64,000 bases of DNA from an uncultured Gammaproteobacteria bacterium (GCA_964441335.1 CAYTUI010000001.1:961-64960); one strand, 5' to 3'. Shown: positions 23,026-40,369, counted from the stretch's first letter. Numbers and translations are program-made. The notes: generated from the letters alone by a model not told the origin.

Positions 23026-25290
23026 ATGCAGACAATAAAAAATAGTCATTATTCTAGCAATCAGAAAAAAAAGTGCTCTGATTGTATCAACTGTAGTGCT
23101 TGTCAGGTAAATCATCTAAGCGTCAGCTGTGGCTGTGACAATGAGGCCAAACAATTCGAATACCGCGGACATATTCACAGCGAGCATCATGATCATGGAG
23201 GTCGGGCGCCAATCACAGCGCAAACCAAAAAAGCACATTCTGGTCATGCTAGCGCTAAGATGAATCATGCAGATCATGCGGCTGCCATGAGTAATCCGGC
23301 GATAGCGAAATTTATGGAGGAAGATATGCGCCGCCGTTTTTTTATCTCTCTGATATTGTCCATACCGACTTTTCTGTATTCCCCTGTGGGCATAGATTTT
23401 TTTAAATTAAATTTACCTACTCCTATTCCCGTCAATTTGTTGCTGTTAATTTTTACCACGCCAATCGTTCTTTGGGCTGGCTCAATTTTTATTAGCGGGA
23501 CATATCATTCTCTGCGGGCAGGAAAATTAAATATGTCAGTATTGATTTTTACCGGGGTCATGACCGCCTATTTGTTTAGCCTTTTTTTGACCTTTACGGG
23601 TGGTCAGGAAACATTTTATGAAGCCGCGGCCTTGTTGGTGACTTTTGTACTCTTTGGGCACTGGATGGAAATGCGTTCGCGTCGGGGAACATCGGATGCT
23701 TTGCGCGCGCTTTTTGATTTAGTACCGCCACAGGCGATTATAATTCGTGACGGTCGGGAAATGACTGTTGCTAGCGCGGAGATAATTAATGGCGACGTGG
23801 TAATAATTAAACCTGGCAATAAAATTCCTGTTGATGGAGAGGTGGTTGAAGGGGACACGTATATTGATGAATCTTTAGTAACTGGCGAGTCGCTGCCGGT
23901 GCATAAGGCTAGTGGCAGTTCGGTGGTTGGGGGGTCAATCAATAAGAATGGCACGATTAAATTCAAGGCCACCAAAGTCGGTAGTGATACTGTTTTAGCT
24001 CAAATCATTAAACTGGTTGAGAGTGCCCAGAATTCCAAGGCACCGGGGCAGAGGATTGCGGACAAAGCGGCTGCGATATTAGTAATTGTTGCTATCGGTT
24101 CAGGCCTAGCCGCTTTTATTGGATGGTACGTGATAGCTGGCGTCAGTTTTATCATAGCTTTGACTTTTGCTGTTTCGACTATTGTTATTGCTTGTCCGGA
24201 TGCTTTGGGGTTGGCGACTCCTACTGCGGTGGCCGTGGGCACCGGCATAGGTGCTAAACATAATATTCTAATTAAAGATGCCACAACGCTGGAAAAAACC
24301 GCTAAAATTAATGCCATTGTTATGGATAAAACAGGTACCTTGACCAAAGGACAACCGGAGGTAACCGATGTTGTTTCCTTTAACTCTTCTTTGGCAGACG
24401 AGGCTGCTGTATTTCAACTGGTGGCATCAATAGAAAAAAATTCAGAGCACCCTTTGGCCAGCACTATTATCAAGAAAGCTGTCAAAGATAAAGTTGAATT
24501 TTTACCCCTTCATAACTTTGCTGCTATTACTGGTCAGGGCGTTAAGGGGACGACTACTGATAACCAGCAAATATTTTTAGGCAACATAAAATTATTAGCT
24601 GACGCTGGCATTTCTTTAACGGCAAAAGATCAGCAAAGAGTGCAATCTTTACAGACTGAAGGCAAAACAGTAATGATATTGGCCAAAGATAAAGAGGTTT
24701 TAGGGGTTATAGCTGTAGCCGATACTGTGCGCGATAGCTCGAAGAGGGCAGTAGAATTACTGCAAAGGATGAAAGTTGAAATAATTATGATTACTGGTGA
24801 TAATATTCAGACGGCGCAGGCCATCGCGGCCAAGCTGGGCATTGAACGCGTGTTTGCCGATGTCTTGCCGGCGGACAAAGCAAACTGGATAAAAAAACTT
24901 CAAACTGAAGGCAAATTCGTGGCTATGGTGGGTGATGGCATTAATGACGCGCCAGCCTTAGCCCAGTCTGATATTGGTATTGCTATCGGCGCCGGAACAG
25001 ACGTAGCTATAGAGACAGCTAGTATTGTTTTAATGAAATCCGATCCTTTGGATATCGTCGCTGCTATTCGCCTTAGTAAGGCGACGGTAAATAAAATGCG
25101 GCAGAATTTATTTTGGGCGGCAATTTATAATCTAATAGCCATTCCTTTTGCGGCTGGCGTTTTTTATAACTCTCTAGGATGGTCTTTACGACCGGAAATC
25201 TCGGCCTTACTGATGTCAGTGTCATCAATTGTTGTCGCTACCAATGCGGTATTGTTAAAAAGAGTAGAACCAAAATTAACAGTTAATTAG
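23026..25290 (+). CDS. CopB-like heavy-metal P1B-type ATPase with Cys/His-rich N-terminus and atypical CPD transmembrane motif
   Basis: N-terminal CSDCINCSAC..SCGCD and HIHSEHHDHGG.. His-rich stretch; TGES; IACPDALGLATP (CPD instead of CPC/CPH); DKTGTLT; GDGINDAP. Confidence 0.9.
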   Translation: MQTIKNSHYSSNQKKKCSDCINCSACQVNHLSVSCGCDNEAKQFEYRGHIHSEHHDHGGRAPITAQTKKAHSGHASAKMNHADHAAAMSNPAIAKFMEEDMRRRFFISLILSIPTFLYSPVGIDFFKLNLPTPIPVNLLLLIFTTPIVLWAGSIFISGTYHSLRAGKLNMSVLIFTGVMTAYLFSLFLTFTGGQETFYEAAALLVTFVLFGHWMEMRSRRGTSDALRALFDLVPPQAIIIRDGREMTVASAEIINGDVVIIKPGNKIPVDGEVVEGDTYIDESLVTGESLPVHKASGSSVVGGSINKNGTIKFKATKVGSDTVLAQIIKLVESAQNSKAPGQRIADKAAAILVIVAIGSGLAAFIGWYVIAGVSFIIALTFAVSTIVIACPDALGLATPTAVAVGTGIGAKHNILIKDATTLEKTAKINAIVMDKTGTLTKGQPEVTDVVSFNSSLADEAAVFQLVASIEKNSEHPLASTIIKKAVKDKVEFLPLHNFAAITGQGVKGTTTDNQQIFLGNIKLLADAGISLTAKDQQRVQSLQTEGKTVMILAKDKEVLGVIAVADTVRDSSKRAVELLQRMKVEIIMITGDNIQTAQAIAAKLGIERVFADVLPADKANWIKKLQTEGKFVAMVGDGINDAPALAQSDIGIAIGAGTDVAIETASIVLMKSDPLDIVAAIRLSKATVNKMRQNLFWAAIYNLIAIPFAAGVFYNSLGWSLRPEISALLMSVSSIVVATNAVLLKRVEPKLTVN

Positions 25291-25307
25291 GGAAGGAGGT
25301 GTATAAT

Positions 25308-25442
25308 ATGATTAATTATAGTTATATGATGGGCAGTTCGGGAGGCGGCTTGATGTTTTTTTCATGGACCACTTATATTCTGTTAACTGCATTGCTGATT
25401 CTTGGCATAGCCGCTTTATGGAAATATATTAATAAAAAATAG
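25308..25442 (+). CDS. Small membrane protein (44 aa), not in ORF track
   Basis: Strong RBS GGAAGGAGG 7 nt upstream of ATG; MINYSYMMGSSGGGLMFFSWTTYILLTALLILGIAALWKYINKK, one TM helix. Confidence 0.45.
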   Translation: MINYSYMMGSSGGGLMFFSWTTYILLTALLILGIAALWKYINKK

Positions 25443-25443
25443 T

Positions 25444-25698
25444 ATGATTAGTGCGAAACATTTACTTAAAGTCAGTTTAGTATGGGTCAATATCGTTTAT
25501 GTAATTTGTTTTTTGGTCGTGGTAATTTATCCGCCGCTAAGGGAACAATTCATGCTCTACGCGTTACACACTAACGTGGAGTTAGGCCAGGACGTGACCA
25601 CGGTTACTACGTTTATTACAGGCTTGATTTGGTGGAACATTTTAGCGGTGTCGGCAGTTGGACTGTTCGCTTGGTTAGACCATAAAATTAAGAAGTAG
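25444..25698 (+). CDS. Small hypothetical membrane protein
   Basis: 84-aa ORF, two TM helices. Confidence 0.4.
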   Translation: MISAKHLLKVSLVWVNIVYVICFLVVVIYPPLREQFMLYALHTNVELGQDVTTVTTFITGLIWWNILAVSAVGLFAWLDHKIKK

Positions 25699-25852
25699 AG
25701 TTACTTAGGGGACATTTTGGTGATCCTGGTAATTGATGTTGATTAATGTTGGGATTTGTTTATTTAGGCGATGTTATAAAATTTTTCGTCTTTTAGAGTT
25801 TCTATAATGACTGATTTTTTATGATTTTAAGATTGAAAATTTAATTGAAATT

Positions 25853-26878
25853 ATGTCAGACAGCAAAACATATGTATTTCACGTGGCCGGCATGCACTGT
25901 TCGGCCTGCGAGATATTAATTGAAGACGAATTAGGAGCGGCTCCGGGCGTTAGCCAAGTGAAGGCCAATTTAGCTAAAAATCAGGTGACAGTTACTTTGG
26001 ATAATCCGGGCGAGCCAGAAGCTATTACCAAAGAGTTATCGGCTAAAATTGCCTCCAAAGGCTACAGCCTGCAGACTGAAAAAATTAAGCCTAACCGGCA
26101 GTGGCAAGATTTCTGGTATGCCGTGCCTTTGGCCGCTATTCTGATTATCATATTTGTCTATCTGCAAAAGATTGGTTTAGTAAACTTAGTTAGTGGCTCA
26201 AGAGTTAATTACGCGACAGCTTTGTTAATCGGCGCTATTGCTTCTGTGTCCACCTGTTTAGCGGTAGTCGGAGGATTAACTTTATCGTTGTCGGCTAATT
26301 ATGCTAAGAGTGGCGCTAAATTTTTACCGCACGTAATGTTTCACACTGGACGATTGGTCGGTTTTTTTCTATTAGGTGGTTTACTGGGTTTGTTAGGGAA
26401 GTCATTTAATATGAGTTTAAGTATCGGAAATACTTTGGGTTTGGTAGTAGCTGTAATTATGTTAATACTAGGGTTAAATTTATTGGATGTTTTTAAGTTC
26501 ACAAAGAAATTACAGTTTAGGATGCCGAAAATTACGGCCAAGCATGCTACTAGACAATCAGTTAAAGGCGGGCGACTAACGCCGATAATAATTGGCGTAA
26601 TAACTTTTTTTCTGCCCTGCGGTTTTACGCAATCCATGCAGGTTTATGCTTTGACAACTGGTAGTTTTCTAACCGGCGCTCTGACCATGGCGACTTTTGC
26701 TTTAGGTACGCTACCTGCTTTGGCTTTATTGTCTTTTGGCTCATTTAGCCTAGCTCATAAATCCTGGTCAGGTATATTTTTTAAGACCGCTGGTCTGATA
26801 GTTATGACCATGGCGTTATTTAATCTGGCCAATATTTTAGCAGTGATGGGCATTATTAATCCAATCTTTAATTTTTAA
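25853..26878 (+). CDS. HMA-domain fused to DsbD_2/UreH-like permease (paralog of 14797..16563 without cupredoxin domains)
   Basis: GMHCSACE HMA motif; conserved VSTCLA and FLPCGFTQSMQ positions shared with the paralog. Confidence 0.6.
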   Translation: MSDSKTYVFHVAGMHCSACEILIEDELGAAPGVSQVKANLAKNQVTVTLDNPGEPEAITKELSAKIASKGYSLQTEKIKPNRQWQDFWYAVPLAAILIIIFVYLQKIGLVNLVSGSRVNYATALLIGAIASVSTCLAVVGGLTLSLSANYAKSGAKFLPHVMFHTGRLVGFFLLGGLLGLLGKSFNMSLSIGNTLGLVVAVIMLILGLNLLDVFKFTKKLQFRMPKITAKHATRQSVKGGRLTPIIIGVITFFLPCGFTQSMQVYALTTGSFLTGALTMATFALGTLPALALLSFGSFSLAHKSWSGIFFKTAGLIVMTMALFNLANILAVMGIINPIFNF

Positions 26879-26886: not shown

Positions 26887-27279
26887 ATGAAAAAAATTAT
26901 TATTCCAATCGTCATAATAGTTGTTTTAGTGGGAGGGGTATATTTATTAGGTAAGCAGGCGAGTGGCGGCACCGATAATACTGGGATTTCCGACAACGTT
27001 AAACAAGTTGGCGGACAACAGGTAGTAGAGATTTTTGCCAAAGGCGGCTATTCGCCAAGAGTTGCCAATGCTCAAGCCGGGGTAGAAACAGTTTTGAAAA
27101 TTTCCACCAACGGAACGTATGATTGCTCTTCCAGTTTGGTAATCCCCAGCTTAAATTACCGTAAATTTTTACAACCGACCGGCGTGGAAGAGATTACTAT
27201 CCCTAAAGATAAAGCCATCGGCAAATTGCGAGGACTATGCGGTATGGGTATGTATTCTTTTGAGATTAGGTTTCAGTAG
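26887..27279 (+). CDS. Small secreted cupredoxin-like protein
   Basis: Signal anchor; domain homologous to the C-terminal modules of 14797..16563 (YDCSSSLVIPSL...GLCGMGMY). Confidence 0.5.
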   Translation: MKKIIIPIVIIVVLVGGVYLLGKQASGGTDNTGISDNVKQVGGQQVVEIFAKGGYSPRVANAQAGVETVLKISTNGTYDCSSSLVIPSLNYRKFLQPTGVEEITIPKDKAIGKLRGLCGMGMYSFEIRFQ

Positions 27280-27439
27280 TCTGTTTTAAACATATATAAG
27301 TCAGAGTAGTGCGAGGTTGAAGCTTTTTAGCGTTTTTAACTGCCTGTTTTAAACATTTATAACGCCGCCAACCGGGTCATTGACAAATTTTTGGAGTAGC
27401 GTTACTATGTGTATATAATACAGTAAGTAATCCACAGGT

Positions 27440-28114
27440 ATGACAGTTAATAGAAAATATGAATTCGCCGTAATTGCTACCGACATTGCTATTTTCGCCG
27501 TAATTGATGGTAAATTACAGGTATTAATGATTGAGATGGTGAAACCACCTTTTACCGGTCAGTGGGCTTTACCGGGCGGACTGATAAAAATCACAGAGAC
27601 CGTTGAAAATGCGGCTAAGCGCACTTTGCTGGAAAAGACTGGCGTCCAGGATGTTTATCTGGAGCAGCTCTTTACTTTTGGTGAGGTTAACCGTGATCCT
27701 TTTGGGAGAGTGGTATCGGTAGCTTATTTTGTTTTAATTTCTGATCCAACCAAGTTAAAACTAAAGGCCGGACGAGAATATAGAAATATAGGCTGGAAAT
27801 CAGTTGATCGGTTGCCTGTTTTGGCTTACGATCACAAGAAAATAGTAGCGGTAGCTATTGAGCGTTTACGATCTAAATTATCTTATACTAATATTGTTTA
27901 TGGTCTATTGCCGAAAGAATTTACTTTAACAGAATTCCAAAGTCTATATGAATTAATTTTAGATCAGCAGTTTGATAAAAGAAATTTCCGTAAAAAAATG
28001 TTGTCATTAGGACTAATAAAGAAGTCAGGACGAAAACAGAGTGGAGTGGCTAACCGACCAGCCAACCTTTTTTCCTTTTCCAGCCGCTCCCCAAAAGTAG
28101 TAGAAATATTATAA
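27440..28114 (+). CDS. nrtR: NrtR-type regulator: Nudix-like ADP-ribose-binding domain fused to C-terminal winged helix
   Basis: Degenerate Nudix fold (QWALPGG...E....AAKR.L.EKTG) plus ~90-aa C-terminal domain; sits directly upstream of pnuC-nadR. A paralog lies at 40501. Confidence 0.7.
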   Translation: MTVNRKYEFAVIATDIAIFAVIDGKLQVLMIEMVKPPFTGQWALPGGLIKITETVENAAKRTLLEKTGVQDVYLEQLFTFGEVNRDPFGRVVSVAYFVLISDPTKLKLKAGREYRNIGWKSVDRLPVLAYDHKKIVAVAIERLRSKLSYTNIVYGLLPKEFTLTEFQSLYELILDQQFDKRNFRKKMLSLGLIKKSGRKQSGVANRPANLFSFSSRSPKVVEIL

Positions 28115-28162
28115 TTTTTTTTAATTAAAGATAGTGTAAATTTTACAATAAATAATAAAGCC

Positions 28163-28741
28163 ATGAGTACATATGAAATTATAGCGGTAGTCTTTGGTCT
28201 AATCTCGGTCTATCTGACTACCAGTCAAAATATTTGGAGTTGGCCAACAGGCTTAGTCAGCGTAGTAGCTTTTGGCTTATTGTTTTTTGACATCAAGCTC
28301 TACGCTGATGTTATTCTGCAAGCCTTTTTCTTTGTTACGGGTTTATTGGGCTGGTATTGGTGGAAGTTTGGAGGAAAGAATAAAACTGAGCTCCAAGTTA
28401 AGTTGTTGAAATCCGTAAGCCGCTGGTGGATATTTCTGTCTATAATTCCTTGCCTTGCTTTGATGGGTTGGCTGTTGTCAAACTACACCGACGCCTCATT
28501 ACCCTATTGGGATTCTTTTATCAGTGTCGTCAGCATTTTTGCACAGTTATTACTGACCAAAAAAATTTTTGAAAATTGGATTCTTTGGATAGCGGTAGAT
28601 ATTGTGGCTATAGGAGTTTATAGTTTTAAAGAAGTTTATTTAACAACCGGTTTGTATGTCATATTTTTATGCTTAGCGACAGTCGGATTAATAAAGTGGT
28701 ATAGATCATGGCAACAGCAAAAAAAAATAACGATAGCATAG
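28163..28741 (+). CDS. pnuC: Nicotinamide riboside transporter PnuC
   Basis: PnuC-like TM protein; the WxxW signature appears in variant form GWYWWKF; adjacent to nadR. Confidence 0.8.
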   Translation: MSTYEIIAVVFGLISVYLTTSQNIWSWPTGLVSVVAFGLLFFDIKLYADVILQAFFFVTGLLGWYWWKFGGKNKTELQVKLLKSVSRWWIFLSIIPCLALMGWLLSNYTDASLPYWDSFISVVSIFAQLLLTKKIFENWILWIAVDIVAIGVYSFKEVYLTTGLYVIFLCLATVGLIKWYRSWQQQKKITIA

Positions 28742-29712
28742 GTTTGGTGCTGGGAAAGTTTGCCCCGCTGCACAAAGGCCATCAGCTGCTAATTGAAACC
28801 GCCCGCCGGGAAATGGATAGGGTTAAGGTGATGATTTATAACTGTCCCGAAACAACAAATATTCCGTTGAACGTACGTTCCGGCTGGATCAAAAAGCTTT
28901 ATCCCGATGTCGAGGTGATTGAAGCCTGGGACGGACCAACTGAAACAGGACGGGCGGCCTGGATAAAGAAAAAAAATGAGGATTATGTTCTTAAAAAAAT
29001 AAATGAACCAATTTCAGCCTTTTACAGTAGTGAGTGGTACGGGGACCATATGAGCAAATTCTTAAACTGCGCCAATATTATGGTTGATAGGCCTCGTCAA
29101 AATTTTAACGTTTCAGGCACTAGAGTAAGAAACAACTCCTATCGTTACAGAAAGTATTTAGACCCCATTGTTTACAATGACTATTTGATCTCAGTTGTTT
29201 TATTGGGCGCTGAATCTTCTGGTAAGACAACTTTAACAAAAGCTTTGGCAAAAAAGTACAAGACAGTTTGGCTGCCGGAATACGGTCGCGAGTATTGGGA
29301 GAAAAATCAGCAGAACGGTTTATTGACTCATAATCAGCTGGTTGAGTTAGCAATTGAACATCGTCACCGTGAGTATGAGTTGATTATGAAAGCTAAAATT
29401 TTTTTATTTATCGATACTAATGCCATGACCACAGCGCTGTTTGATGAATATTACCATGGAGAAATAGATAGTCGACTCCAGAAAATGGCCAACGAAGATG
29501 CCGAGAGGCAGAATATTTTTCTGCTCTGCGATATCGATATTCCTTATGAAGACGACGGTAGCCGTTCCGGCGCAGAACATAGGATCAAATTTGCCAGGCG
29601 GATAGAGGAGGATCTACAGGCCAAAAAAGTCTCTTATTATAAGATCAGGGGAACATTGGAACAGCGTTTAAAACAGGTTAAGAAAATTTTAAATAGGATT
29701 GACATTTATTAG
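28708..29712 (+). CDS. nadR: NadR-like bifunctional NMN adenylyltransferase / ribosylnicotinamide kinase
   Basis: HxGH-type nucleotidyltransferase motif (GKFAPLHKGH) and P-loop kinase motif (LLGAESSGKTTL). Confidence 0.85.
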   Translation: MATAKKNNDSIGLVLGKFAPLHKGHQLLIETARREMDRVKVMIYNCPETTNIPLNVRSGWIKKLYPDVEVIEAWDGPTETGRAAWIKKKNEDYVLKKINEPISAFYSSEWYGDHMSKFLNCANIMVDRPRQNFNVSGTRVRNNSYRYRKYLDPIVYNDYLISVVLLGAESSGKTTLTKALAKKYKTVWLPEYGREYWEKNQQNGLLTHNQLVELAIEHRHREYELIMKAKIFLFIDTNAMTTALFDEYYHGEIDSRLQKMANEDAERQNIFLLCDIDIPYEDDGSRSGAEHRIKFARRIEEDLQAKKVSYYKIRGTLEQRLKQVKKILNRIDIY

Positions 29713-29957
29713 ATGGCTAATATTAGCAAAAAAATCCATCAGAATATTTTCGATAAGTATCTAAAATAAGGATTTTTATCGAAGATCTGCTGATTAATCT
29801 TCCTGACTTGACAAAAATGGCTAATTTTAGTAAACTTGGCCGTTTACTGTCAGGTCTTGGCAGGTAAATTTTTTTGCTCTTTGTTAAGGAATTTAGCAGT
29901 TTTAAACGCAGACCTTTTGGTCATCAACCACTACCCAGAAACGAGGAGGTATAGGCT

Positions 29958-30875
29958 ATGAAGAAGCCTTTCGGTCTCTACGATCCGTCTTTGGTCGGGA
30001 TAAACTACAAGCCGCGTATTGAAGAAGCGCGGGCAGAGGGTCGCGCGGCAGGTCTCAGTGATGCCTCAACGGATACCTTCCGGACCATGCTGGCGCTGAT
30101 CGATTTCCAGCAGTGCTTCACACGTCCGGGTATGCCGCTGTGTGTACCGGGGGCCGTGGATGATATCCGACGGATCATCGCCTGGATTCTGACCCATCCG
30201 GAGGAGATCACGCGCGTTCTGATTACCCTGGATTCTCACAGCGCCTTGCAGGTCTTCACCCGCTGGTGGTGGAAACATCGTGACGGCTATCATCCGGATG
30301 ACTTTACCGATATCCTCACCGACCGTGTGGAATCTGGTATATGGATTCCGCAGGTGATGCCGAAGTGGTCGAGAACCTACCCGCGCCGTCTTGAAGAGAG
30401 CGGACAGGCTCCGCTCAAGATCTGGCCCCAGCACGGCGAGGTGGGTAGTGAGGGCTGGCAGTTGGACCCGGCGTTGATCGAGGTGATCGAGTGGCTGTGC
30501 GCCGCCCGCAACATTGCCCCCACCTATCTCTTCAAGGGCAATGTGCCGGAGTCCGAGTACTACGGAATTTTCCGTCCCTGCATTCTGGTGCCGACTCACC
30601 CGGATGGGGGATGGAACTATCCACTACTCAACTGGTTCCCGACCTTCGACCGCGTCATTGAAGCTGGTGAAGCGGAGGAATTCTGCGTTGGCGAATCCAT
30701 GAAACAGCAGATCGCTCACTACCGCGAGGTTGATCCCGAGGTTCTCAAGAAGATCGTCTTCTTGCGCGACTGCACCTCCACTGTTCTGCCTGAGAACCGA
30801 GGCCGAGCGGATGAGCTGCTGGACACGATGAAGCACGTGGGCATCCAGGTGTCTACCACAACTGAGTTGGTCTAG
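29958..30875 (+). CDS. Isochorismatase-family hydrolase (nicotinamidase PncA-like), GC-rich
   Basis: ALIDFQQCF..G.PLCVPGA pattern resembles the isochorismatase/PncA N-terminal catalytic-Asp region; later FCVGES Cys. First gene of the GC-rich NAD island. Confidence 0.55.
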   Translation: MKKPFGLYDPSLVGINYKPRIEEARAEGRAAGLSDASTDTFRTMLALIDFQQCFTRPGMPLCVPGAVDDIRRIIAWILTHPEEITRVLITLDSHSALQVFTRWWWKHRDGYHPDDFTDILTDRVESGIWIPQVMPKWSRTYPRRLEESGQAPLKIWPQHGEVGSEGWQLDPALIEVIEWLCAARNIAPTYLFKGNVPESEYYGIFRPCILVPTHPDGGWNYPLLNWFPTFDRVIEAGEAEEFCVGESMKQQIAHYREVDPEVLKKIVFLRDCTSTVLPENRGRADELLDTMKHVGIQVSTTTELV

Positions 30876-31060
30876 TTGCTGGCTGGTTGGCAGACTGCTT
30901 GGGATGTTAAGCCGGGCTTGTGGGAGGGTCACGTCAGTGACCCTCCCACACCTAATTTTTTAGAAACTTGTTCCCAACAATCGTTGGAGACAAATTTCTA
31001 ACCTTGATTTTTTTGAGGTTATGCACCTTTCCAAGTCAACAACAAACAAGGAGGTAGCCG

Positions 31061-32449
31061 ATGCCTAAGGTGGCGGTTTTCGGAGGCAGTTTCAATCCGC
31101 CGGGTCAGCATCATTTTCTGATCGTCAGGGAATTGTTAGAGCGGGGCGGCTTTAATCAAGTGATTGTAGTGCCCTGCGGCCCGCGGCCGGATAAATTGAC
31201 TACAAACGATATCGATTCTGTCTCCAGAGCCACTATGGTCGATCTGACTTTCCGCGGCCTGGCGAACGTTGAAGTCGACCTGTTCGATCTGGAGAACGGT
31301 ACCTTTACCAGAACTCACCAGCTGGACAAGCGCTATGGCCAACGAGGTGATCTCTGGCATGTGGTCGGCACTGATTTGATCAGTGGCGGAGCCGTCGGTC
31401 AGTCCCAGATTCAGCGAGTTTGGAAAAACGGATCGGAAATTTGGAGTAGCCTCCAGTTTCTGGTCCTGGTGCGCAACGGGTACAAGCTGAATCAGGCAGA
31501 TTTGCCGCCGCGCAGTCAGGTTCAGCAACTGGATCTGGACGGTGCCAGCTCGGATATTCGGACGGCAGCCATGAATCACCGGTCGTTGGCCGGACTGGTC
31601 AGACCGGAGGTAGCCAGCTACATCGAGCGTCATGAACTCTATCGCGGTTCCTGGCCGCGGCGGACCACTCGCTTGCGCCTGGTGCAACCGCAGATCCTGG
31701 TCTTTCACGATCAGCGCAATGAGCGTGCGGTGGAAGTTGCTGCCGCTTTGCGCCGCTGGGAGTCGGATGACCCGAATCTGGTGGTGGCCGTTGGTGGAGA
31801 TGGCACTATGCTGCGCGCCATTCATCAGCACTGGCAGAGACATTTACCGTTTATCGGTATCAATGTCGGACACCGGGGGTTTCTGCTGAATAACCTGGAA
31901 GGCGATCAGCTGGCGGAAGTGGTTTCACAGGGTCTGGAGGTCCATCGTTCGCCGCTGTTGTACGTTGAGACCGTTACCAATCAGGGAGCTGAGCAACGGT
32001 CTTTGGTGGCCAACGATGCTTGGGTGCAGTGTCAGCCTGGCACTACGGGCTGGTTGGAGGTAAAAATTGACGGTCAGGTTCGCCTGCCACGTCTGGTCTC
32101 CGACGGTGTTCTGGTTTCAACCGCCGCCGGTTCTACCGCTTATGCCAGAGCCATGGGAGCAACGCCCATACCGGTTGGCACGCCGGAGCTAGTCCTAGTC
32201 GGTAACAACGTTCTGGAACCACCCAACTGGCGCTCGGCCTACCTGCCGCTGGACTCGCTGATTCAAATCAGGAGTCTCGATCAGGCTAGGCCGACCAAAA
32301 GGCCGATTCTGGGCTTTGTGGACGGTTTGTCTCTGGGCGAGATTCGGCAGTTGGATATCCGCGCCAGTCGGATAGCGGCTATTGAGCTAGCTTTCTTGCC
32401 CGGTTATAACCTCGGACACAAGCTGGCCGAGATCCAATTCCCTTCCTAG
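31061..32449 (+). CDS. Fusion protein: N-terminal NMN/NaMN adenylyltransferase (NadD/NadM-like) plus C-terminal NAD kinase (NadK)
   Basis: N-term GGSFNPPGQHH (HxGH-class); C-term GGDGTML, GINVGHRGFL and DGVLVSTAAGSTAYARAMG NAD-kinase motifs. Confidence 0.8.
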   Translation: MPKVAVFGGSFNPPGQHHFLIVRELLERGGFNQVIVVPCGPRPDKLTTNDIDSVSRATMVDLTFRGLANVEVDLFDLENGTFTRTHQLDKRYGQRGDLWHVVGTDLISGGAVGQSQIQRVWKNGSEIWSSLQFLVLVRNGYKLNQADLPPRSQVQQLDLDGASSDIRTAAMNHRSLAGLVRPEVASYIERHELYRGSWPRRTTRLRLVQPQILVFHDQRNERAVEVAAALRRWESDDPNLVVAVGGDGTMLRAIHQHWQRHLPFIGINVGHRGFLLNNLEGDQLAEVVSQGLEVHRSPLLYVETVTNQGAEQRSLVANDAWVQCQPGTTGWLEVKIDGQVRLPRLVSDGVLVSTAAGSTAYARAMGATPIPVGTPELVLVGNNVLEPPNWRSAYLPLDSLIQIRSLDQARPTKRPILGFVDGLSLGEIRQLDIRASRIAAIELAFLPGYNLGHKLAEIQFPS

Positions 32450-32459
32450 TCGTTGAAAG

Positions 32460-32491
32460 CCGCAGGGACGAGCAGCAGCTCGTCCCTGCGG
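32460..32491 (+). terminator. Hairpin terminator CCGCAGGGACGAGC-AGC-AGCTCGTCCCTGCGG
   Basis: 14-bp perfect stem; followed by AT-rich spacer with a second palindrome CCTTGTTTCAAACAAGG. Confidence 0.55.
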
Positions 32492-32600
32492 ACCCAATTT
32501 TGAAATAAAGAATTGCCAGTTTTATAAGTTGTCAGTTCCTTGTTTCAAACAAGGCCAAGTTCTTTGTAAATCTAAGAGATCAAAACCAAGGAGGAAAAAC

Positions 32601-33188
32601 GTGGAACGTACGGTGATTCATAGCGGTTTTTTGCAGCTGGAAGTTGTGGCAACACCACAGGGCCAGAGGGAGCTGGTGCGTACCACTGATTCTCTTTGCC
32701 TGTTGATTTTCGATCAGCTACGCAATCGGCTGATCTTAGTTCGACAGCCGCGGCCTTCACAGATGTCTGAACTCAATCCCGATAGTCCCCTGGCCAATCG
32801 CGAGGGGCTGATCACCGAGTGCTGCGCCGGCCGTTTCGACGGTCGGTATTCTCCGCTGGAGTTGGCGGTCAAGGAAGCCGAGGAGGAAACTGGTATTCAG
32901 GTCAATCCGGAGAATGTCGAGCTGCTGAACGGCGGGCGGCCCATGGCTGTGTCCGCCGGGGTCATCACGGAGTTATCCTATCTGGCGTACGTGAGGATCA
33001 CTTCAGATACCTCCGGTCTCGACCAGAAGTTGCACGGTCGGGCAGATGAGGGTGAGGAGATTCGTCTGGTCAGTCTGGACGCGGATCCTCGTTATCTGCA
33101 GGTGTACTTGGGCGGAGCTTGTCAGGACATTCGTGTCTTCACTCTGCTGCAGTATCATCTCAACAAGATGGAATGTCAGGTGTCCTGA
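32601..33188 (+). CDS. NUDIX hydrolase, ADP-ribose pyrophosphatase-like (start GTG at 32601 after AAGGAGG)
   Basis: Nudix box AGRFDGRYSPLELAVKEAEEETGI; strong SD 7 nt upstream of GTG. ORF track lists 32529..33188. Confidence 0.7.
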   Translation: MERTVIHSGFLQLEVVATPQGQRELVRTTDSLCLLIFDQLRNRLILVRQPRPSQMSELNPDSPLANREGLITECCAGRFDGRYSPLELAVKEAEEETGIQVNPENVELLNGGRPMAVSAGVITELSYLAYVRITSDTSGLDQKLHGRADEGEEIRLVSLDADPRYLQVYLGGACQDIRVFTLLQYHLNKMECQVS

Positions 33189-33212
33189 CAGTTTCCAGGA
33201 GAGGAGTTTTCA

Positions 33213-34838
33213 GTGAGGAGTCTGTATCAAATCGTTCAGCAGATGTTTCCCCTGCAGCGTCTACCCTGGGATGAGTACTTCGCGGCCATGGCGCAGTCCG
33301 ACTTCAAGCTCGGGCGGCACCAGATTCCGGCCACCAAGTCATTCTTTATCAGGTCGGCGCCGTTTGGCGGATCGTTTGCGCTGCTGGGCGGTATTACCGA
33401 AGCCCTACGAACCATCAACGAGTTGCGCTTTGACGCAGATTTCCGGGCGATCATGGAGGAATTCGGCTACGAAGCCGATTTCCTGGACTGGTTGCAATCG
33501 GAAGAACGGTTGAAGGTTCAGGTCTACGCGCCGCCGGAAGGCAGCGTTTTCTTCCCCAGCGAGCCCGTGGTCACTTTTCGTGGGCCGTTGGCGCACATTC
33601 GGCTGGTCGAAGGCATGATGATTGAGGCGCTGAACTTCTCTACCTTGTCACTGACCAAATGGCAGCGACTGGTCAGGGTGGTGCGCCCCGGCTCTGTGTT
33701 GGAGTTCGCTCGTCGGCGATCGCAGCATCATCTCCGATCCTCGCTTTACGGTTTGCTGGCCGGTTGCCGGCAGATCAGCAACAGCGAAGCGGCCCGTCTG
33801 ATCGGCGTAAAGCCGGTCGGTACCATGGGTCATGAGTGGATGCAGTCGTTCGGCGATGTCCGCGAGGCCTTCGATGCCTGGCTCAAGGTCAATCCGCATA
33901 AGCCTGTTGGCTTGGTGGATACCTTGCAGTGTCTGGAGATCGATTTTCCGGCTTGGCTGGAGGCGGTCTACGAGCAGCGCGAGGTTGTAAAGGCCGCTGA
34001 CAGTCCGATCTGGGGCTGGCGCAACGATTCGGGTGACCTTGCCTACCTGACTATTGAGCAGTACATTCGCTTTTGGAAGCATCTGCTGTCTCAGGATCAG
34101 TGGTTTGCCGACCGCATGCACATTGTGCTGACCAACGATCTGGATGAGTACTCTTCGGAGGAAATCATCCAGCAGATTCGTAGCCAGGCCGGAGCCGCCG
34201 GTTTGGATGCCGAGGATCTGCTCCGACGGATCATTTGGGCGGCCGGTACCAAGCCGGGCACCTGCTATGATCAGCCGGCTTTGGGCGGCGTAGCCAAGCT
34301 GATGGAAGTCGATGGTCATGGCTGCATCAAGCTGGCTTTCGATGCCGACGGTAATCCGGGCGCCAAGACCTCGATTCCGGGGTTCAATCGCTCAGCGCTG
34401 ATCCGCGATCGTGATTCCGGTGAAGTTCACTGCCTGTTGATCTATCCGGCCGAGGACACTACTTTCCATCTGTTTGAGCATGATGGAGAAGGTTACTTCG
34501 GTGACGGGCGGAAGGGAGACGCTTGGGAGACCATTACCGCACATCATCCGGACACGCCCGGTTCGGAGCTGCACATCAAGAACTATCTGGTTCAGGGACG
34601 ACAGCAGCTGGTCTTTGATACGATCGATCAGAACGGCCTGACCGACGAGTGGATAGAGGACACTGTACAGTCGGTGGCTGAACGGGTTGTGAGGGAAATT
34701 GATTCCCTGCACTGGACTGTCAGCCGTCTCCGCAAGCCTCATCGGGTCAAGGTCTCTGTCACAGAAGGTCTGTTTGAGCAGCGGACGAATCTGATTCGTA
34801 CCCGCTGTCTGCGAACGGACAAGATGTGGAAGCAGTAG
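33213..34838 (+). CDS. pncB: Nicotinate phosphoribosyltransferase (PncB/NAPRT family, long form)
   Basis: N-terminal DEYFAAMAQ...SFFIRSAPFGGSFALLGGI..AL..L.ELRF and VYAPPEGSVFFPSEPVVTFRGPLAHIRLVE..MIEALNF.TL match type II PRTase NAPRTase conservation. Confidence 0.75.
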   Translation: MRSLYQIVQQMFPLQRLPWDEYFAAMAQSDFKLGRHQIPATKSFFIRSAPFGGSFALLGGITEALRTINELRFDADFRAIMEEFGYEADFLDWLQSEERLKVQVYAPPEGSVFFPSEPVVTFRGPLAHIRLVEGMMIEALNFSTLSLTKWQRLVRVVRPGSVLEFARRRSQHHLRSSLYGLLAGCRQISNSEAARLIGVKPVGTMGHEWMQSFGDVREAFDAWLKVNPHKPVGLVDTLQCLEIDFPAWLEAVYEQREVVKAADSPIWGWRNDSGDLAYLTIEQYIRFWKHLLSQDQWFADRMHIVLTNDLDEYSSEEIIQQIRSQAGAAGLDAEDLLRRIIWAAGTKPGTCYDQPALGGVAKLMEVDGHGCIKLAFDADGNPGAKTSIPGFNRSALIRDRDSGEVHCLLIYPAEDTTFHLFEHDGEGYFGDGRKGDAWETITAHHPDTPGSELHIKNYLVQGRQQLVFDTIDQNGLTDEWIEDTVQSVAERVVREIDSLHWTVSRLRKPHRVKVSVTEGLFEQRTNLIRTRCLRTDKMWKQ

Positions 34839-34970
34839 AGCTGCTACAAGCCGGTGGTCACCAGCAGGTGACCACCGGCCCTTACTTCAGCCTTGTCATA
34901 AAGAAAATGAAAGGGTTGAAGAGAGGCTAGTTCATTCAATGTCTATTCTAAAACCAAGGAGGTGCTCTAA

Positions 34971-35927
34971 ATGAGTTCTGCTCAGCCGATCGCTCACGGT
35001 AGCGGTCAAATGGGGGCGCAGTCTATCTCCATTCAGGTATCCACGCGGGAGCGTTGCAACGCCGGTTGTCGTTTTTGCATTTCGCGAACAACGCCGGGAG
35101 TGGAAACACCGGGCAATCCTCATGAAGTTAAGTTCTGCGATGAGCCGCGTCTGCAGGTCGGGTTGAACTATGCCCGGCAGTTGGGTGCGACGCATGCTAT
35201 CCTGACATCACGAGCTGATCCTTCGCAGGAGGACCCAAGGTATCTGCACCGACTGATCAGTACCAGTCGTCAGTTCTTGCCGCTAGTGGACATGCATACC
35301 AATGGTTTTCTTTGGCTGCCTGGTAAGCCGCAAGCCGATGATCTGTCTATACTGGTGGTTTCGGGTCTGACCATGCTTACTCTGTCGATCGCTTCTTTCG
35401 ATCAAAATCAGAATAGAGAGCTGATGATGATCCGCGAAAGCGGTGCCGGTTTGATCCGTCGGGCTCGGGATTTGGGTCTGCTGGTCCGCTGCTCTTTGGT
35501 TGTCAATTCCCAGGGAGTCAACGATTACCAGGGGGTTATCAACTACATCAAACAGGCCGGCAACCTGGGAGCCCACATGGTGGTCGTTAGAGAAGTCTGG
35601 CGACCGGAAGTGTATGGCGATTTCCAGCCCGAAGTGCTGGACTGGAACAACTGCAACTGGGTGGATATCGGTCCGATCCAGAGTCAGTTTATCCAGGCCG
35701 CCGGCCAGAGGGACAACCCTTACGGCTTGCAGCTTCGTGACCCCTTGCCCTGGGGCACACCGGTTATGGTGATGGGCGGAGTGTTCGACGACCCCAATCA
35801 TGGGGTCAATATCACTTTCGCTCGTTGCGAGGAGGGTACCAGGGGCTCGACCATTAAGAGCATCGTCCATAAGCCCGATGGTCACGGTTATCGCAACTGG
35901 GATCACAACGGCGATATCCTCTACTGA
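34971..35927 (+). CDS. Radical SAM domain protein (CX3CX2C)
   Basis: RERCNAGCRFCISRT cluster-binding motif near N-terminus; no further family assignment possible by eye. Confidence 0.6.
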   Translation: MSSAQPIAHGSGQMGAQSISIQVSTRERCNAGCRFCISRTTPGVETPGNPHEVKFCDEPRLQVGLNYARQLGATHAILTSRADPSQEDPRYLHRLISTSRQFLPLVDMHTNGFLWLPGKPQADDLSILVVSGLTMLTLSIASFDQNQNRELMMIRESGAGLIRRARDLGLLVRCSLVVNSQGVNDYQGVINYIKQAGNLGAHMVVVREVWRPEVYGDFQPEVLDWNNCNWVDIGPIQSQFIQAAGQRDNPYGLQLRDPLPWGTPVMVMGGVFDDPNHGVNITFARCEEGTRGSTIKSIVHKPDGHGYRNWDHNGDILY

Positions 35928-36057
35928 TTAGGTGGAGGACGGGGCATCTGCGTCGGCGCAGATGCCCCCTTTCCCGAGGTCTTATCATCTATAGATAAGG
36001 TCTTAGGAGAGTTCAGTTCTTTAACACGCAACCATCTAAAACCAAGGAGGAGAGGGA

Positions 36058-38082
36058 ATGCTAAAGTCCGAACAGTTTATGGACGTTCGACAGCATGGGT
36101 TTATCCGTTTGGCCGTGATTGTACCCAGAGTTCATTTGGGCAATGTACCGGCAAACGTGGCTGAACATCTGATGAAGATCAGCGAGGTTCGCAGACAAGG
36201 CGCCAGTTATATAGTGGCTCCTGAGTTGAGTCTGACCGGCTACTCCAACGGCGATCTGTTTCATTCACAGGCACTGCTGGAAGCGGCCGTGATCGGTTTG
36301 GGCGAGTTGCTGGAGGCAACGGCAGCCTGGCCGCAGATCATCTCGGTCGGCCTGCCCCTGCTGGTGGACGGCGCGGTCTACAACTGTGCTGTGACCATTC
36401 ATCGGGGCGTTATTCTGGCGGTGGTGCCTAAGGCCTATCCGCCGGAGTATCGCGAGTTTTATGAGCAGCGGCACTTCGCCTCGGCCTATGAGGCTCAGTC
36501 CACTGTTATCAACCTGCTGGGTCAGACAGCTGCTTTCGGAACCGACATTTTGTTGGTTTCGGATCACAACCCGCGTCTGACGATTCACACCGAGGTCTGC
36601 GAAGATCTTTGGGTGCCGATTCCGCCCAGCACTGAGGCGGCTCTAGCTGGCGCAACGGTGCTGGCCAACCTGTCGGCTTCCAATATCACCATCGGTAAGA
36701 GCGGATATCGGGAGCTGTTGGTGGCCGGATCGTCAGCCAAGAATCTGGCTGTGCAGATGTACAGCGCGGCAGGTTTCGGTGAGTCCACGACTGACCTGTC
36801 CTGGGACGGGGAAGCCCTGATCGCCGAGCGTGGCGAAATTCTGGTCAGGGGTCAGCGTTTCAGCCTTGACGGCGGCACTTCAGTTGTGGCCGACGTGGAT
36901 CTGGAGCTGTTGGCACTGGAACGCGCCAGGCAGAATTCCTTCAGGTCAAACGCCAGTCAGCATCCCCGTAAGTTCCGGCGCATCCTGATTACTGGACAGT
37001 TATCTGATGCTGTTCAGGACGGGCTGGAGCAGGTGCATCACAAGTTGCACCGCTTCGTGGATCCGCATCCCTTCGTGCCTAGCGACCAGTCTCAGCGCGA
37101 TGAGCGCTGTCGGGAAACTTTCCTGATTCAGGCAACGGCTTTGGCCAGACGGCTGGAACAGCTGCCACAGGATCGTCGGCACGTGGTGGTGGGTATTTCC
37201 GGTGGACAGGATTCAACGCACGCGCTCAACGTGGCGGTCCATGCTATGGATCTCATGAAGATGCCGCGTCGCAACATCCTGGCGGTAACCATGCCGGGGT
37301 TCGGCACAACCGACCTGACAAAGAACAATGCCGTGGCATTGGTCAAAGCGGTCGGCGCTGAACTGCTGGTGATTCCCGTTAGTGAACTGTCGCTCCTGAT
37401 GTTCCAAAACATCGGGCATAATCCGGATGAGCACGACCTGACCTACGAGAACGTTCAGGCTTGGGCCCGGATGTATACGGAGCTGTCATTAGCTGCCGAG
37501 AAAGGAGGGTTGGTACTGGGGACTGGTGACTTGTCGGAGCTGATGCTTGGCTGGTGTACTTACCTGGGTGATCACGCCAGTCATTATGGTATCAACGCCG
37601 GTGTGCCCAAGACTCTTATTTCCTATCTGATCGCCTGGACCGCAGAGCAGGTCTATGGAGAGAAGGAACCGGAAGTTAGGGGTATTCTGCAGAGCATTCT
37701 GGTAACTCCGATATCACCGGAGCTCTTACCACCGGCGGCTGACGGTTCTATAGCGCAGAGAACGGAAGACAAGGTTGGACCATATGAGCTGCATGATTTC
37801 TTCGGTTATTACTTCGTTCGCTTTGGTTTCAGCCCCAAGCGCATCGTGCGTCTGGCATTGGCTGCCTTTGGCGACAAGTACTCCATCGGAGAGATCAAGT
37901 CTTGGTTCAGGCTCTTCCTGACTCGTTTCTTCCGGAATCAGTTCAAGCGATCTTGTTTGCCCGATGGTCCCAAGGTAGGTCTGACGTGCATCTCGCCTCG
38001 CGGTGACTGGCGGATGCCCTCGGATGCTGACCCGACTGTTTGGCTTCAGGATCTGGAGCTGGTACCGGACAACCTCAACTAG
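36058..38082 (+). CDS. nadE: Glutamine-dependent NAD+ synthetase NadE (nitrilase-like glutaminase domain plus NAD synthetase domain)
   Basis: N-terminal CN-hydrolase fold (IVAPELSLTGY, ...CEDLW); C-terminal PP-loop VVGISGGQDST and long 674-aa architecture like actinobacterial NadE. Confidence 0.9.
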   Translation: MLKSEQFMDVRQHGFIRLAVIVPRVHLGNVPANVAEHLMKISEVRRQGASYIVAPELSLTGYSNGDLFHSQALLEAAVIGLGELLEATAAWPQIISVGLPLLVDGAVYNCAVTIHRGVILAVVPKAYPPEYREFYEQRHFASAYEAQSTVINLLGQTAAFGTDILLVSDHNPRLTIHTEVCEDLWVPIPPSTEAALAGATVLANLSASNITIGKSGYRELLVAGSSAKNLAVQMYSAAGFGESTTDLSWDGEALIAERGEILVRGQRFSLDGGTSVVADVDLELLALERARQNSFRSNASQHPRKFRRILITGQLSDAVQDGLEQVHHKLHRFVDPHPFVPSDQSQRDERCRETFLIQATALARRLEQLPQDRRHVVVGISGGQDSTHALNVAVHAMDLMKMPRRNILAVTMPGFGTTDLTKNNAVALVKAVGAELLVIPVSELSLLMFQNIGHNPDEHDLTYENVQAWARMYTELSLAAEKGGLVLGTGDLSELMLGWCTYLGDHASHYGINAGVPKTLISYLIAWTAEQVYGEKEPEVRGILQSILVTPISPELLPPAADGSIAQRTEDKVGPYELHDFFGYYFVRFGFSPKRIVRLALAAFGDKYSIGEIKSWFRLFLTRFFRNQFKRSCLPDGPKVGLTCISPRGDWRMPSDADPTVWLQDLELVPDNLN

Positions 38083-38088
38083 AGGTTT

Positions 38089-38131
38089 GACCCCGCCCCA
38101 ACACTTTTGTGTCATGGGCGGGGTCTTTTTT
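38089..38131 (+). terminator. Rho-independent terminator closing the GC-rich NAD island
   Basis: GACCCCGCCC-loop-GGGCGGGGTC followed by TTTTTT. Confidence 0.7.
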
Positions 38132-38312
38132 AATTTGATAGACCTTCGTACCGCCAGCCATTGGCTGATCGGGGCTTCGGTTTGGGGGCCTTAGATTTGT
38201 TTATTTTGTTAAATATATAAGCTTCAATGCTTAGCGCAGAAGTAGTTTGATCATCCTTGACAGCCTTAATTTTACCAGCTTAAATTAAGTTATAATTTGT
38301 AGTTATAAAAAT

Positions 38313-38597
38313 ATGAAGCCCTTGAGAATAACAATTTTAATGCTGGCGATAGTTGGTTTAAATGGCTGTTTTAAACTGTCGCAAAACAATTTAAAGGATG
38401 GAAATACTAATAAAGTAAACGATGAGGTAAATACTGCAGAGATATTACCGACGACTCCCACGACAACTCCAGAATCAGATATTAGTAAAGATGATGATAG
38501 CATTAAGGATTGTGTCTTATTAACCGAGCAGGAATGTCTGGTTAGAGAAGGTTGTCAGGGAAATGGATGGAGAGGAACGTTGTTTAGAATAAAATAA
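38313..38597 (+). CDS. Small lipoprotein, Thr/Pro/Asp-rich
   Basis: Lipobox LNGCF after signal peptide; AT-rich native composition. Confidence 0.5.
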   Translation: MKPLRITILMLAIVGLNGCFKLSQNNLKDGNTNKVNDEVNTAEILPTTPTTTPESDISKDDDSIKDCVLLTEQECLVREGCQGNGWRGTLFRIK

Positions 38598-40208: not shown

Positions 40209-40369
40209 AGTGATTCTGAAAAAATTCACAGGAGATGTAGTTGCGGGTTTCGCCCAAAGGGCGACCCGGTCGAATGACCGGGCAAGTCCTGTCACCCCGA
40301 CCATTCGACTTTGTTCAGCTTAGCTTGACCAAGAAAATTATATAACAATATTAAATCTCGTTTGATGGA

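What the first reader, a model, noticed from the sequence alone, without database searches (positions are those of the whole stretch)
31061..32449. Single polypeptide fusing NaMN/NMN adenylyltransferase to NAD kinase
The N-terminal about 190 aa carry the (H/T)xGH nucleotidyltransferase signature as GGSFNPPGQHH. The C-terminal about 270 aa carry GGDGTML, NxGxxGFL and DGxxVSTxxGSTAY NAD-kinase motifs. Fusing the NaAD-forming step directly to NADP formation is an unusual architecture and would channel salvage intermediates.
Basis: partly seen in the sequence, partly recalled or inferred. Interest (0 to 1): 0.5.

Follow-up and report, generated by a model that had tools for sequence, protein, structure and literature searches.

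The report
NadD–NAD kinase fusion enzyme gene
This is a genuine single gene joining an NAD-building enzyme (NaMN adenylyltransferase) to NAD kinase; it belongs to a widespread but unstudied bacterial family and sits in a foreign DNA island that gives a tiny groundwater bacterium a complete vitamin-B3 recycling pathway.

Summary
The ORF at 31061-32449 (+, 462 aa) is intact and really has two domains. Residues 1-197 are NadD-type; residues ~201-462 are a short-type NAD kinase. It is not an assembly or frameshift artefact. The identical protein occurs on 14 contigs, from several sequencing runs and assemblers. More than 100 full-length homologues (48-56% identity) share the junction.

The architecture is common. 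74 of the 150 closest N-domain cluster representatives are this fusion, and 58 are stand-alone. Others are fused to NadE or Nudix.

The "HxGH" motif is actually GQHH. In the subfamily, a His at motif position 3 and an H/T at position 1 never occur together (0/149). That suggests a relocated but functional catalytic His.

The two reactions are not consecutive, because NadE acts between them. Substrate channelling is therefore unsupported.

The host is a Komeilibacteria-like Patescibacterium with ~40% GC. The gene lies in an 8.2-kb, 56% GC island encoding a PncA-like protein, NadD-NadK, a Nudix protein, PncB and NadE. The island sits beside native nrtR-pnuC-nadR.

I found no publication on this fusion. 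Verdict: an ordinary but uncharacterised bifunctional enzyme, of modest interest.

The parts
31048..31054 (+). Shine-Dalgarno AAGGAGG, 6 nt before the ATG
   Evidence: Read directly from the sequence.
31061..32449 (+). Complete NadD-NadK fusion gene (462 aa plus stop)
   Evidence: ORF list. Pfam and NCBIfam hits to both domains. AF2 model with pLDDT 92.2 and pTM 0.91.
31061..31651 (+). N-terminal NadD-type nucleotidyltransferase domain (aa 1-197)
31082..31114 (+). ATP-site motif GGSFNPPGQHH (aa 8-18), the GxHH variant of (H/T)xGH
   Evidence: Alignment to NadD. H17 and H18 are invariant and G15 is at least 90% conserved in the family. Covariation result.
31541..31561 (+). GASSDIR (aa 161-167), counterpart of the NadD ISSTxxR motif
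   Evidence: Aligned to VSSTMIR of 1kam. G161 and S163 are at least 90% conserved and R167 is invariant.
31637..31690 (+). Domain junction: conserved LYRG (aa 193-196) and a short linker into the first NADK strand
   Evidence: Family conservation. The model has no low-confidence linker. The stand-alone N-domain ORF in L041 ends just after LYG.
31661..32446 (+). C-terminal short-type NAD kinase domain (aa ~201-462)
31793..31804 (+). GGDG catalytic motif (aa 245-248)
   Evidence: Invariant in 53 aligned homologues. Aligns to the GGDG of LmNadK1.
30919..30950 (+). Hairpin terminator of the upstream PncA-like gene, so the fusion gene has its own transcription unit
   Evidence: Terminator scan: 14-bp stem followed by a T run.
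32461..32492 (+). GC-rich hairpin directly after the stop codon (probable terminator)
   Evidence: Read from the sequence. The consensus scan did not call it.
29958..30875 (+). First gene of the GC island: divergent isochorismatase-like protein, probable nicotinamidase (PncA role)
   Evidence: Only PDB hit is the isochorismatase-family protein 3hu5, E 0.037. E 4e-37 to the L040 375-aa protein, which lies between genes that include a stand-alone NADK and PncB.
32601..33188 (+). Nudix hydrolase, ADP-ribose pyrophosphatase-like
   Evidence: PF00293 and TIGR00052 5e-13. GTG start at 32601, matching the gene calls.
33213..34838 (+). Nicotinate phosphoribosyltransferase (PncB), which makes NaMN
   Evidence: NF006695 1.2e-75 plus the Pfam NAPRTase N and C domains.
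36058..38082 (+). Glutamine-dependent NAD synthetase (NadE), the step between the two fused activities
   Evidence: NF002730 at 823.9 bits, above the cutoff of 473. PF02540 plus PF00795.
27440..29712 (+). Native low-GC nrtR-pnuC-nadR(NMNAT/RNK) cluster bordering the island
   Evidence: GC3 0.32-0.44.

Best explanation
The gene encodes a bifunctional enzyme of NAD(P) biosynthesis. The N-terminal domain is a NadD-type nucleotidyltransferase, and the C-terminal domain is a short-type NAD kinase.

The N-domain most likely adenylylates nicotinate mononucleotide: NaMN + ATP -> NaAD + PPi. Its phosphate-contacting His has moved from position 1 to position 3 of the classical (H/T)xGH motif, giving GxHH. 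The C-domain phosphorylates NAD to NADP.

The intervening amidation, NaAD -> NAD, is done by a separate NadE encoded 3.6 kb downstream. The fusion therefore couples the expression and stoichiometry of two ATP-dependent 'universal' steps. It does not channel an intermediate.

In this genome the gene is one unit of an 8.2-kb horizontally acquired high-GC island. The island encodes the whole Preiss-Handler salvage route: a PncA-like nicotinamidase, PncB, NadD-NadK and NadE, plus an ADP-ribose Nudix hydrolase. It is inserted next to the native nrtR-pnuC-nadR genes of a Komeilibacteria-like Patescibacterium.

Shown here: the domain identities, the intactness of the ORF, the family distribution, the motif conservation and covariation, the island composition and the host affiliation. 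Inferred: catalytic activity of both domains, the NaMN preference, and regulation by NrtR.
For: Domain identity:
- Sequence hits.
- AF2 model pLDDT 92.2 and pTM 0.91.

Catalytic residues:
- NADK residues are kept: GGDG, NxGHxGFL, N318-D319, D348 and TAAGSTAY.
- NadD marks are kept: K45, R56, E78, W121, R138 and S163..R167.

Motif behaviour in the 150 best N-domain representatives:
- The position-4 His is present in 147 of the 149 rows with no gap at the motif.
- Position 1 in {H,T} together with position 3 = H: 0 cases.
- Position 1 H/T only: 30 cases. Position 3 His only: 112 cases. Neither: 7 cases.
- Fisher p = 4e-25.

Other forms of the same subfamily:
- It exists stand-alone: 58 of 150 representatives, plus the L041 ORF. 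A pseudo-enzyme would be unlikely to persist alone.
- It is fused to NadE in P0309, P0378, P0384 and P0390. NadE uses NaAD, which points to NaMN as the substrate.

Context in the window: PncB makes NaMN and NadE consumes NaAD in the same island. A NadR-type NMNAT already covers NMN.

Horizontal transfer: GC3 is 0.63-0.71 in the island against 0.32-0.45 in host genes. Contigs built by different assemblers span both island borders.

Host: TopA is 65-69% identical to proteins named Komeilibacteria. Housekeeping genes are present in the window.

NrtR link: NrtR lies within 8 kb of the fusion in four other loci. nrtR-pncA-pncB-nadD-nadE regulons are published (PMC2330246).
Against: - No biochemical data exist for any family member (literature).
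- The strict (H/T)xGH signature is not met.
- Both domains score below NCBIfam equivalog cutoffs: 81.9 bits against 112.45, and 142.4 against 211.
- The covariation statistic is not corrected for phylogeny.
- In large genomes the gene sits in unrelated neighbourhoods. Context support for NaMN therefore comes mainly from this island and from the NadE fusions.
- Whether the host has other nadD or nadK genes is unknown. Only 64 kb was searched.
Confidence: 0.75

Rival explanations
1. The N-domain prefers NMN. The polypeptide would then catalyse two consecutive reactions, NMN -> NAD -> NADP, and could hand NAD directly to the kinase site.
Against: The best sequence matches are all bacterial NaMN-preferring NadDs. 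The island carries PncB and NadE, which make sense only with a NaMN -> NaAD step. NadR already supplies an NMNAT domain. The same NadD subfamily is fused to NadE in other organisms.
Confidence: 0.15
2. The N-domain is a catalytically dead ligand-sensing module, because it has lost the first His of HxGH. It would regulate the attached NAD kinase in response to NaMN, NaAD, NAD or ATP.
For: The strict (H/T)xGH motif is absent. The TIGR00482 score is below the equivalog cutoff. NAD kinases are known to be allosterically controlled (my own background knowledge, not tested here).
Against: The terminal His is nearly invariant, and the position-1/position-3 covariation looks compensatory. Other substrate-site residues are conserved. 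58 of the 150 closest relatives are stand-alone ~200-aa proteins with the same GxHH motif. NadE-NadD fusions carry it too. The island would otherwise lack a NaMN adenylyltransferase between PncB and NadE.
Confidence: 0.08
3. The fusion is an artefact. A frameshift, a missed stop or a chimeric assembly would have joined two separate genes, perhaps at the junction between high-GC and low-GC DNA.
For: The GC content jumps from 40% to 56% near the gene, which could suggest a chimeric contig.
Against: The GC borders lie at ~29.9 kb and ~38.15 kb, not inside the gene. The identical 462-aa protein and its flanks are recovered by JGI, ENA (MEGAHIT-style contig names) and Logan assemblies from different runs. 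More than 100 homologues share the same length and the conserved LYRG junction. The whole chain models confidently.
Confidence: 0.01
4. The locus belongs to a jumbo phage that rebuilds NAD to counter NAD-depleting host defence.
For: The window holds six tRNA genes and many NAD-salvage genes, including an ADP-ribose Nudix hydrolase.
Against: The window carries DnaG, RpoD, TopA, Mfd, RelA/SpoT and copper ATPases. TopA is closest to Komeilibacteria and Kerfeldbacteria. There is no megablast match to phage records. IMG/VR holds only stand-alone NADK-like hits and no fusion.
Confidence: 0.01

Closest known systems
Bacterial NadD (nicotinate-mononucleotide adenylyltransferase, EC 2.7.7.18; e.g. B. 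subtilis 1kam, S. aureus 2h29, E. coli 1k4k)
   Different: HxGH is replaced by GxHH. There is an 8-residue insertion after GTD (aa ~107-114). The score is below the TIGR00482 cutoff. The domain is covalently joined to NAD kinase.
Short-type bacterial NAD kinase (NadK/PpnK, EC 2.7.1.23; L. monocytogenes NadK1 2i1w; NCBIfam PRK04761 type)
   Different: It has no free N-terminus. It is preceded by a NadD domain with almost no linker. The score is below the NF003406 cutoff (142 against 211).
Other bifunctional NAD enzymes: NadR (NMNAT + NR kinase), NadM-Nudix (2qjt/2qjo), and the bifunctional NADP phosphatase/NAD kinase of NCBIfam model PRK14076
   Same: They follow the same evolutionary theme of fusing two NAD-pathway activities in one chain. 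NadR and a Nudix protein are encoded in the same locus here.
NrtR-controlled pncA-pncB-nadD-nadE and nadR-pnuC clusters (Rodionov et al. 2008, PMC2330246)
   Same: The gene set and the NrtR association are the same.
   Different: Here nadD carries nadK. The salvage block is a compositionally foreign island. It also includes a very divergent PncA-like protein and a radical-SAM-like gene.

Membership tests
NadD / cytidylyltransferase-like nucleotidyltransferases (PF01467, TIGR00482) | Strict N-terminal (H/T)xGH ATP-binding signature after GxFxP | tested here: not met
   The sequence is GGSFNPP-G-Q-H-H. Aligned to PP-H-N-G-H of 1kam, position 1 is Gly and position 3 is His. The terminal His and GxFxP are present and conserved.
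NadD / cytidylyltransferase-like nucleotidyltransferases (PF01467, TIGR00482) | Score above curated family thresholds | tested here: inconclusive
   PF01467 scores 31.0 bits, above the cutoff of 21, so this is met. TIGR00482 scores 81.9 bits, below the equivalog cutoff of 112.45, so this is not met.
NadD / cytidylyltransferase-like nucleotidyltransferases (PF01467, TIGR00482) | NadD-type fold and C-terminal ISSTxxR-like motif | tested here: met
NadD / cytidylyltransferase-like nucleotidyltransferases (PF01467, TIGR00482) | NaMN (over NMN) adenylyltransferase activity | not testable with these tools
   Only indirect evidence: PncB and NadE in the same island, and NadE-NadD fusions in the same subfamily.
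NAD kinase (PF01513 / PF20143) | GGDG motif, NxGxxGFL glycine-rich motif, and the conserved DG..ST..GSTAY segment | tested here: met
   These lie at aa 245-248, 268-275 and 348-361. They are invariant or at least 90% conserved in 53 homologues and align to LmNadK1.
NAD kinase (PF01513 / PF20143) | Two-domain NADK fold, complete | tested here: met
NAD kinase (PF01513 / PF20143) | Score above curated thresholds | tested here: inconclusive
   PF01513 scores 38.5, above 25.5, so this is met. PF20143 scores 18.2, below 23.7. NF003406 scores 142.4, below 211.
NadD-NadK fusion family (database-level, uncharacterised) | Full-length collinear homology with the conserved LYRG junction | tested here: met
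   120 of 120 listed hits are 454-480 aa with 98-100% coverage and 48-56% identity. The junction is conserved.
Phage NAD-reconstitution / counter-defence loci | Location on a viral genome | tested here: not met
   Bacterial housekeeping genes are present. The host TopA is closest to Patescibacteria. There is no phage match and no fusion in IMG/VR.

The most novel reading that the evidence does not exclude
The GxHH NadD subfamily may be a mechanistically distinct class of pyridine-nucleotide adenylyltransferase. Its rigid fusion to NAD kinase (pTM 0.91) might support a non-canonical order of reactions. For example, NaAD could be phosphorylated to NaADP and then amidated to NADP. Alternatively, the fusion might form a NadD-NadK/NadE complex that commits salvaged niacin directly to NADP. 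For a genome-reduced Patescibacterium, acquiring this cassette would also mean a switch from cofactor dependence to niacin-based self-sufficiency.
Probability: 0.06. Interest if true: 0.6.

Novelty: new member of a known kind. Interest (0 to 1): 0.33.

Why it matters
NadD and NadK are two of the essential steps of NAD(P) synthesis in bacteria and are studied as drug targets (background knowledge). This work shows that a large, multi-phylum family carries both on one chain, with a rearranged ATP-site motif. The same NadD variant is also fused to NadE or to Nudix.

That gives a well-defined and easily testable case of active-site plasticity. It also corrects automatic annotations that name these proteins only 'NAD(+)/NADH kinase'.

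For the organism, the finding is part of a more interesting picture. A symbiont-type CPR bacterium has imported a full nicotinamide/nicotinate salvage pathway next to its native NR uptake genes. This bears on how cofactor-dependent such bacteria really are.

Tried and rejected
- Phage origin (suggested by the tRNAs and NAD genes): rejected. Megablast to phage records found nothing. The window holds housekeeping genes. The TopA affinities point to Patescibacteria. IMG/VR has no fusion.
- Assembly chimera at the GC jump: rejected, because several contigs built by different assemblers cross both borders.
- Single-sequence AF2 of the 305-aa PncA-like protein: failed (pLDDT 36.5), so no fold search was possible. 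A homologue search found only the protein itself.
- The afdb50 fold library was unavailable, so UniProt annotations of the fusion could not be listed.
- The genome-contig scan with a single sequence returned only 4 loci.
- The radical SAM gene beside the fusion in L020 is not homologous to the window's 318-aa protein. Only the CxxxCxxC motif is shared, so it is not a conserved partner.
- The TTGTT-N3-AACAA palindrome upstream of the fusion gene is not found in other lineages' loci. With one mismatch allowed it is not enriched.
- Five literature searches for a described NadD-NadK fusion found nothing relevant.

Full report
**1. The observation**

The ORF at 31061-32449 (+) is uninterrupted. It has 462 codons, an ATG start, and AAGGAGG at 31048-31054. 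A 14-bp-stem terminator at 30919-30950 ends the upstream gene. A GC-rich hairpin at ~32461-32492 follows the stop codon. The gene therefore looks like its own transcription unit.

Pfam finds the cytidylyltransferase-like domain at aa 6-147 and the NAD-kinase N-domain at aa 220-286, both above gathering thresholds. NCBIfam gives NadD TIGR00482 over aa 6-194 (6e-23). It gives the short NAD kinase model NF003406 over aa 221-460 (1.4e-41). Both are below equivalog cutoffs.

**2. Not an artefact**

The identical protein lies on 14 contigs from JGI, ENA and Logan assemblies of several groundwater runs. Several of these contigs span both flanks.

The protein search returned 1105 hits. The 120 listed are all 454-480 aa, 48-56% identical, with 98-100% coverage, and nearly all carry both Pfam domains. 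The junction (LYRG, aa 193-196) is conserved, and there is essentially no linker.

**3. The motif**

Aligned to B. subtilis NadD (GGTFDPPHNGH), the window protein reads GGSFNPPGQHH. The first His of HxGH is Gly, and the Gly is His. In the family, G15 is at least 90% conserved, and H17 and H18 are invariant.

I searched the N-domain alone against 1.84 billion cluster representatives. This gave 3090 hits at E<=1e-3, 401 at E<=1e-10 and 204 at E<=1e-30. I aligned the best 150 to a family HMM:

| Motif state | Count |
|---|---|
| Position-4 His present | 147 of 149 |
| Position 1 in {H,T} and position 3 = H | 0 |
| Position 1 in {H,T} only | 30 |
| Position 3 = H only | 112 |
| Neither | 7 |

Fisher's exact test gives p = 4e-25, not corrected for phylogeny. 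This pattern is what a relocation of the phosphate-contacting side chain would produce. It is not what decay would produce.

Other NadD marks are conserved: K45, R56, E78, W121, R138 and S163..R167. All NAD-kinase catalytic and binding motifs align with L. monocytogenes NadK1.

**4. Distribution and architectures**

Of the 150 best N-domain representatives, 74 are NadD-NadK fusions and 58 are stand-alone ~200-aa proteins. The rest include:
- NadE-NadD fusions (P0309, P0378, P0384, P0390);
- NadD-Nudix fusions (P0288, P0330);
- one NadD-NadD'-NadK protein (P0317).

A metagenome contig (L041) shows a stand-alone GRHH-motif ORF that ends just after LYG. L040 shows a stand-alone NADK of the same subfamily (47% identity), lying between a PncA-like gene and PncB. 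Named MAGs carrying the fusion include Acidobacteria, Verrucomicrobiota (Prosthecobacter, Phragmitibacter), Planctomycetes and Patescibacteria.

In large genomes the gene sits alone in unrelated neighbourhoods, with the genome's own GC content. NrtR lies within 8 kb in L012, L020, L023 and L039. IMG/VR contains only stand-alone NADK-like genes. I found no paper describing this fusion.

**5. Context in the window**

The window is a bacterial chromosome. It carries DnaG, RpoD, TopA, Mfd, RelA/SpoT and copper ATPases. Its TopA is closest to Candidatus Komeilibacteria (65-69%), then to Kerfeldbacteria and Parcubacteria. The base composition is ~40% GC, but 29.9-38.15 kb and 41.3-46.1 kb are 55-60% GC. 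GC3 is 0.63-0.71 in island 1, against 0.32-0.45 in host genes.

Island 1 encodes, in order:
- a 305-aa divergent isochorismatase-like protein, probably a nicotinamidase;
- NadD-NadK;
- an ADPR-type Nudix hydrolase;
- PncB;
- a radical-SAM-like protein;
- glutamine-dependent NadE, at 824 bits against a cutoff of 473.

Immediately upstream lie the native low-GC nrtR-pnuC-nadR genes. A second nrtR follows at 40501-41202. These gene sets match published NrtR regulons: nrtR-pncA-pncB-nadD-nadE and nadR-pnuC-nrtR (PMC2330246). No other NadD-like or NADK-like ORF is present in the 64 kb.

**6. Mechanism**

The most economical reading has five steps:
- PncA-like: nicotinamide -> nicotinate.
- PncB: nicotinate -> NaMN.
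- Fusion N-domain: NaMN -> NaAD.
- NadE: NaAD -> NAD.
- Fusion C-domain: NAD -> NADP.

The Nudix protein would clear or recycle ADP-ribose, which is also the effector ligand of NrtR.

The two fused reactions are separated by the NadE step. The fusion therefore cannot channel a shared intermediate unless the N-domain actually prefers NMN. That remains a minority possibility (~0.15). The NadE-NadD fusions in the same subfamily argue for NaMN. Co-expression and fixed stoichiometry, or joint assembly on the NADK oligomer, are the likely benefits. This last point is inference.

**7. Verdict**

The protein is a new member of an already catalogued but experimentally uncharacterised bifunctional family. 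Some JGI records already name it 'NAD kinase/nicotinic acid mononucleotide adenylyltransferase'. Interest is modest.

The more notable by-products are the compensatory GxHH motif and the imported complete niacin-salvage island in a CPR bacterium.

Noticed in passing
window 29900-38150 and 41300-46100: There are two compositionally foreign islands (55-60% GC, GC3 0.58-0.81) in a ~40% GC Patescibacteria chromosome. Contigs built by different assemblers cross the borders, so they are real insertions and not chimeras.
   Followed up: partly
window 29958-30875: This 305-aa protein has no Pfam or NCBIfam hit, and a homologue search found only the protein itself. It still shows nicotinamidase-like motifs (DFQQCF, LDSH, WPQH, FKG, FCV). 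It is homologous (E 4e-37) to a 375-aa protein in L040 that lies near a stand-alone NADK and PncB, and at 29% identity to a neighbour of the fusion in L018. It is probably a long, divergent PncA family.
   Followed up: partly
window 34971-35927: A 318-aa radical-SAM-like protein (CNAGCRFC; PF04055 below threshold) is embedded in the NAD salvage island between pncB and nadE. Its function is unknown. It is not homologous to the radical SAM gene next to the fusion in L020.
   Followed up: partly
window 32579-32594, 34947-34962, 36035-36050: Three island genes (Nudix, rSAM-like, NadE) share a near-identical leader, (T)CTAAAACCAAGGAGG. The expected count is 0.14. Each island gene is also followed by its own GC-rich hairpin, giving a cassette-like modular layout with AT-rich spacers.
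   Followed up: partly
window 27282-27292, 27345-27355, 32541-32551 (degenerate copies at 30969-30979 and 38367-38377): The palindrome TGTTTNAAACA occurs exactly three times (expected 0.26). Two copies lie upstream of nrtR1-pnuC-nadR and one lies upstream of the island's Nudix gene. It is a candidate NrtR operator. The pattern was chosen post hoc, so the statistic is biased.
   Followed up: partly
window 40188-40208 and 40283-40303: The 3' end of tRNA-Pro (CAAGTCCCGCCACCCCGACCA) is duplicated at 90% identity 95 bp downstream. This resembles a remnant att site of an integrated element, and it lies between the two GC islands.
   Followed up: no
window 41310-46083: Island 2, downstream of the second nrtR, encodes three proteins without family hits (311, 387 and 391 aa). 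It also encodes a very divergent adenylosuccinate-synthetase-like protein (PF00709 1.5e-31; about 72 bits against NCBIfam cutoffs near 400; PDB hits around 1e-9). Its function is unknown.
   Followed up: partly
proteins P0309, P0378, P0384, P0390, P0288, P0330, P0317: The same GxHH NadD subfamily is also fused to NadE at its N-terminus and to Nudix at its C-terminus. One protein has tandem NadD domains (one HVGH, one SKYH) followed by NADK.
   Followed up: partly
window 14797-26878: This is a copper-handling cluster. It has two P-type ATPases (17848-20811 and 23026-25290). It also has HMA-DsbD_2 proteins at 14797-16563 (with a fused cupredoxin domain) and 25853-26878, the latter followed by a separate cupredoxin gene at 26887-27279. 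That is unusually rich for a small CPR genome.
   Followed up: no
window 13-97, 5555-5631, 6121-6197, 12349-12435, 40133-40208, 40370-40444: Six tRNA genes are scattered through 64 kb, including two tRNA-Met. This first suggested a jumbo phage, but the region is chromosomal.
   Followed up: yes
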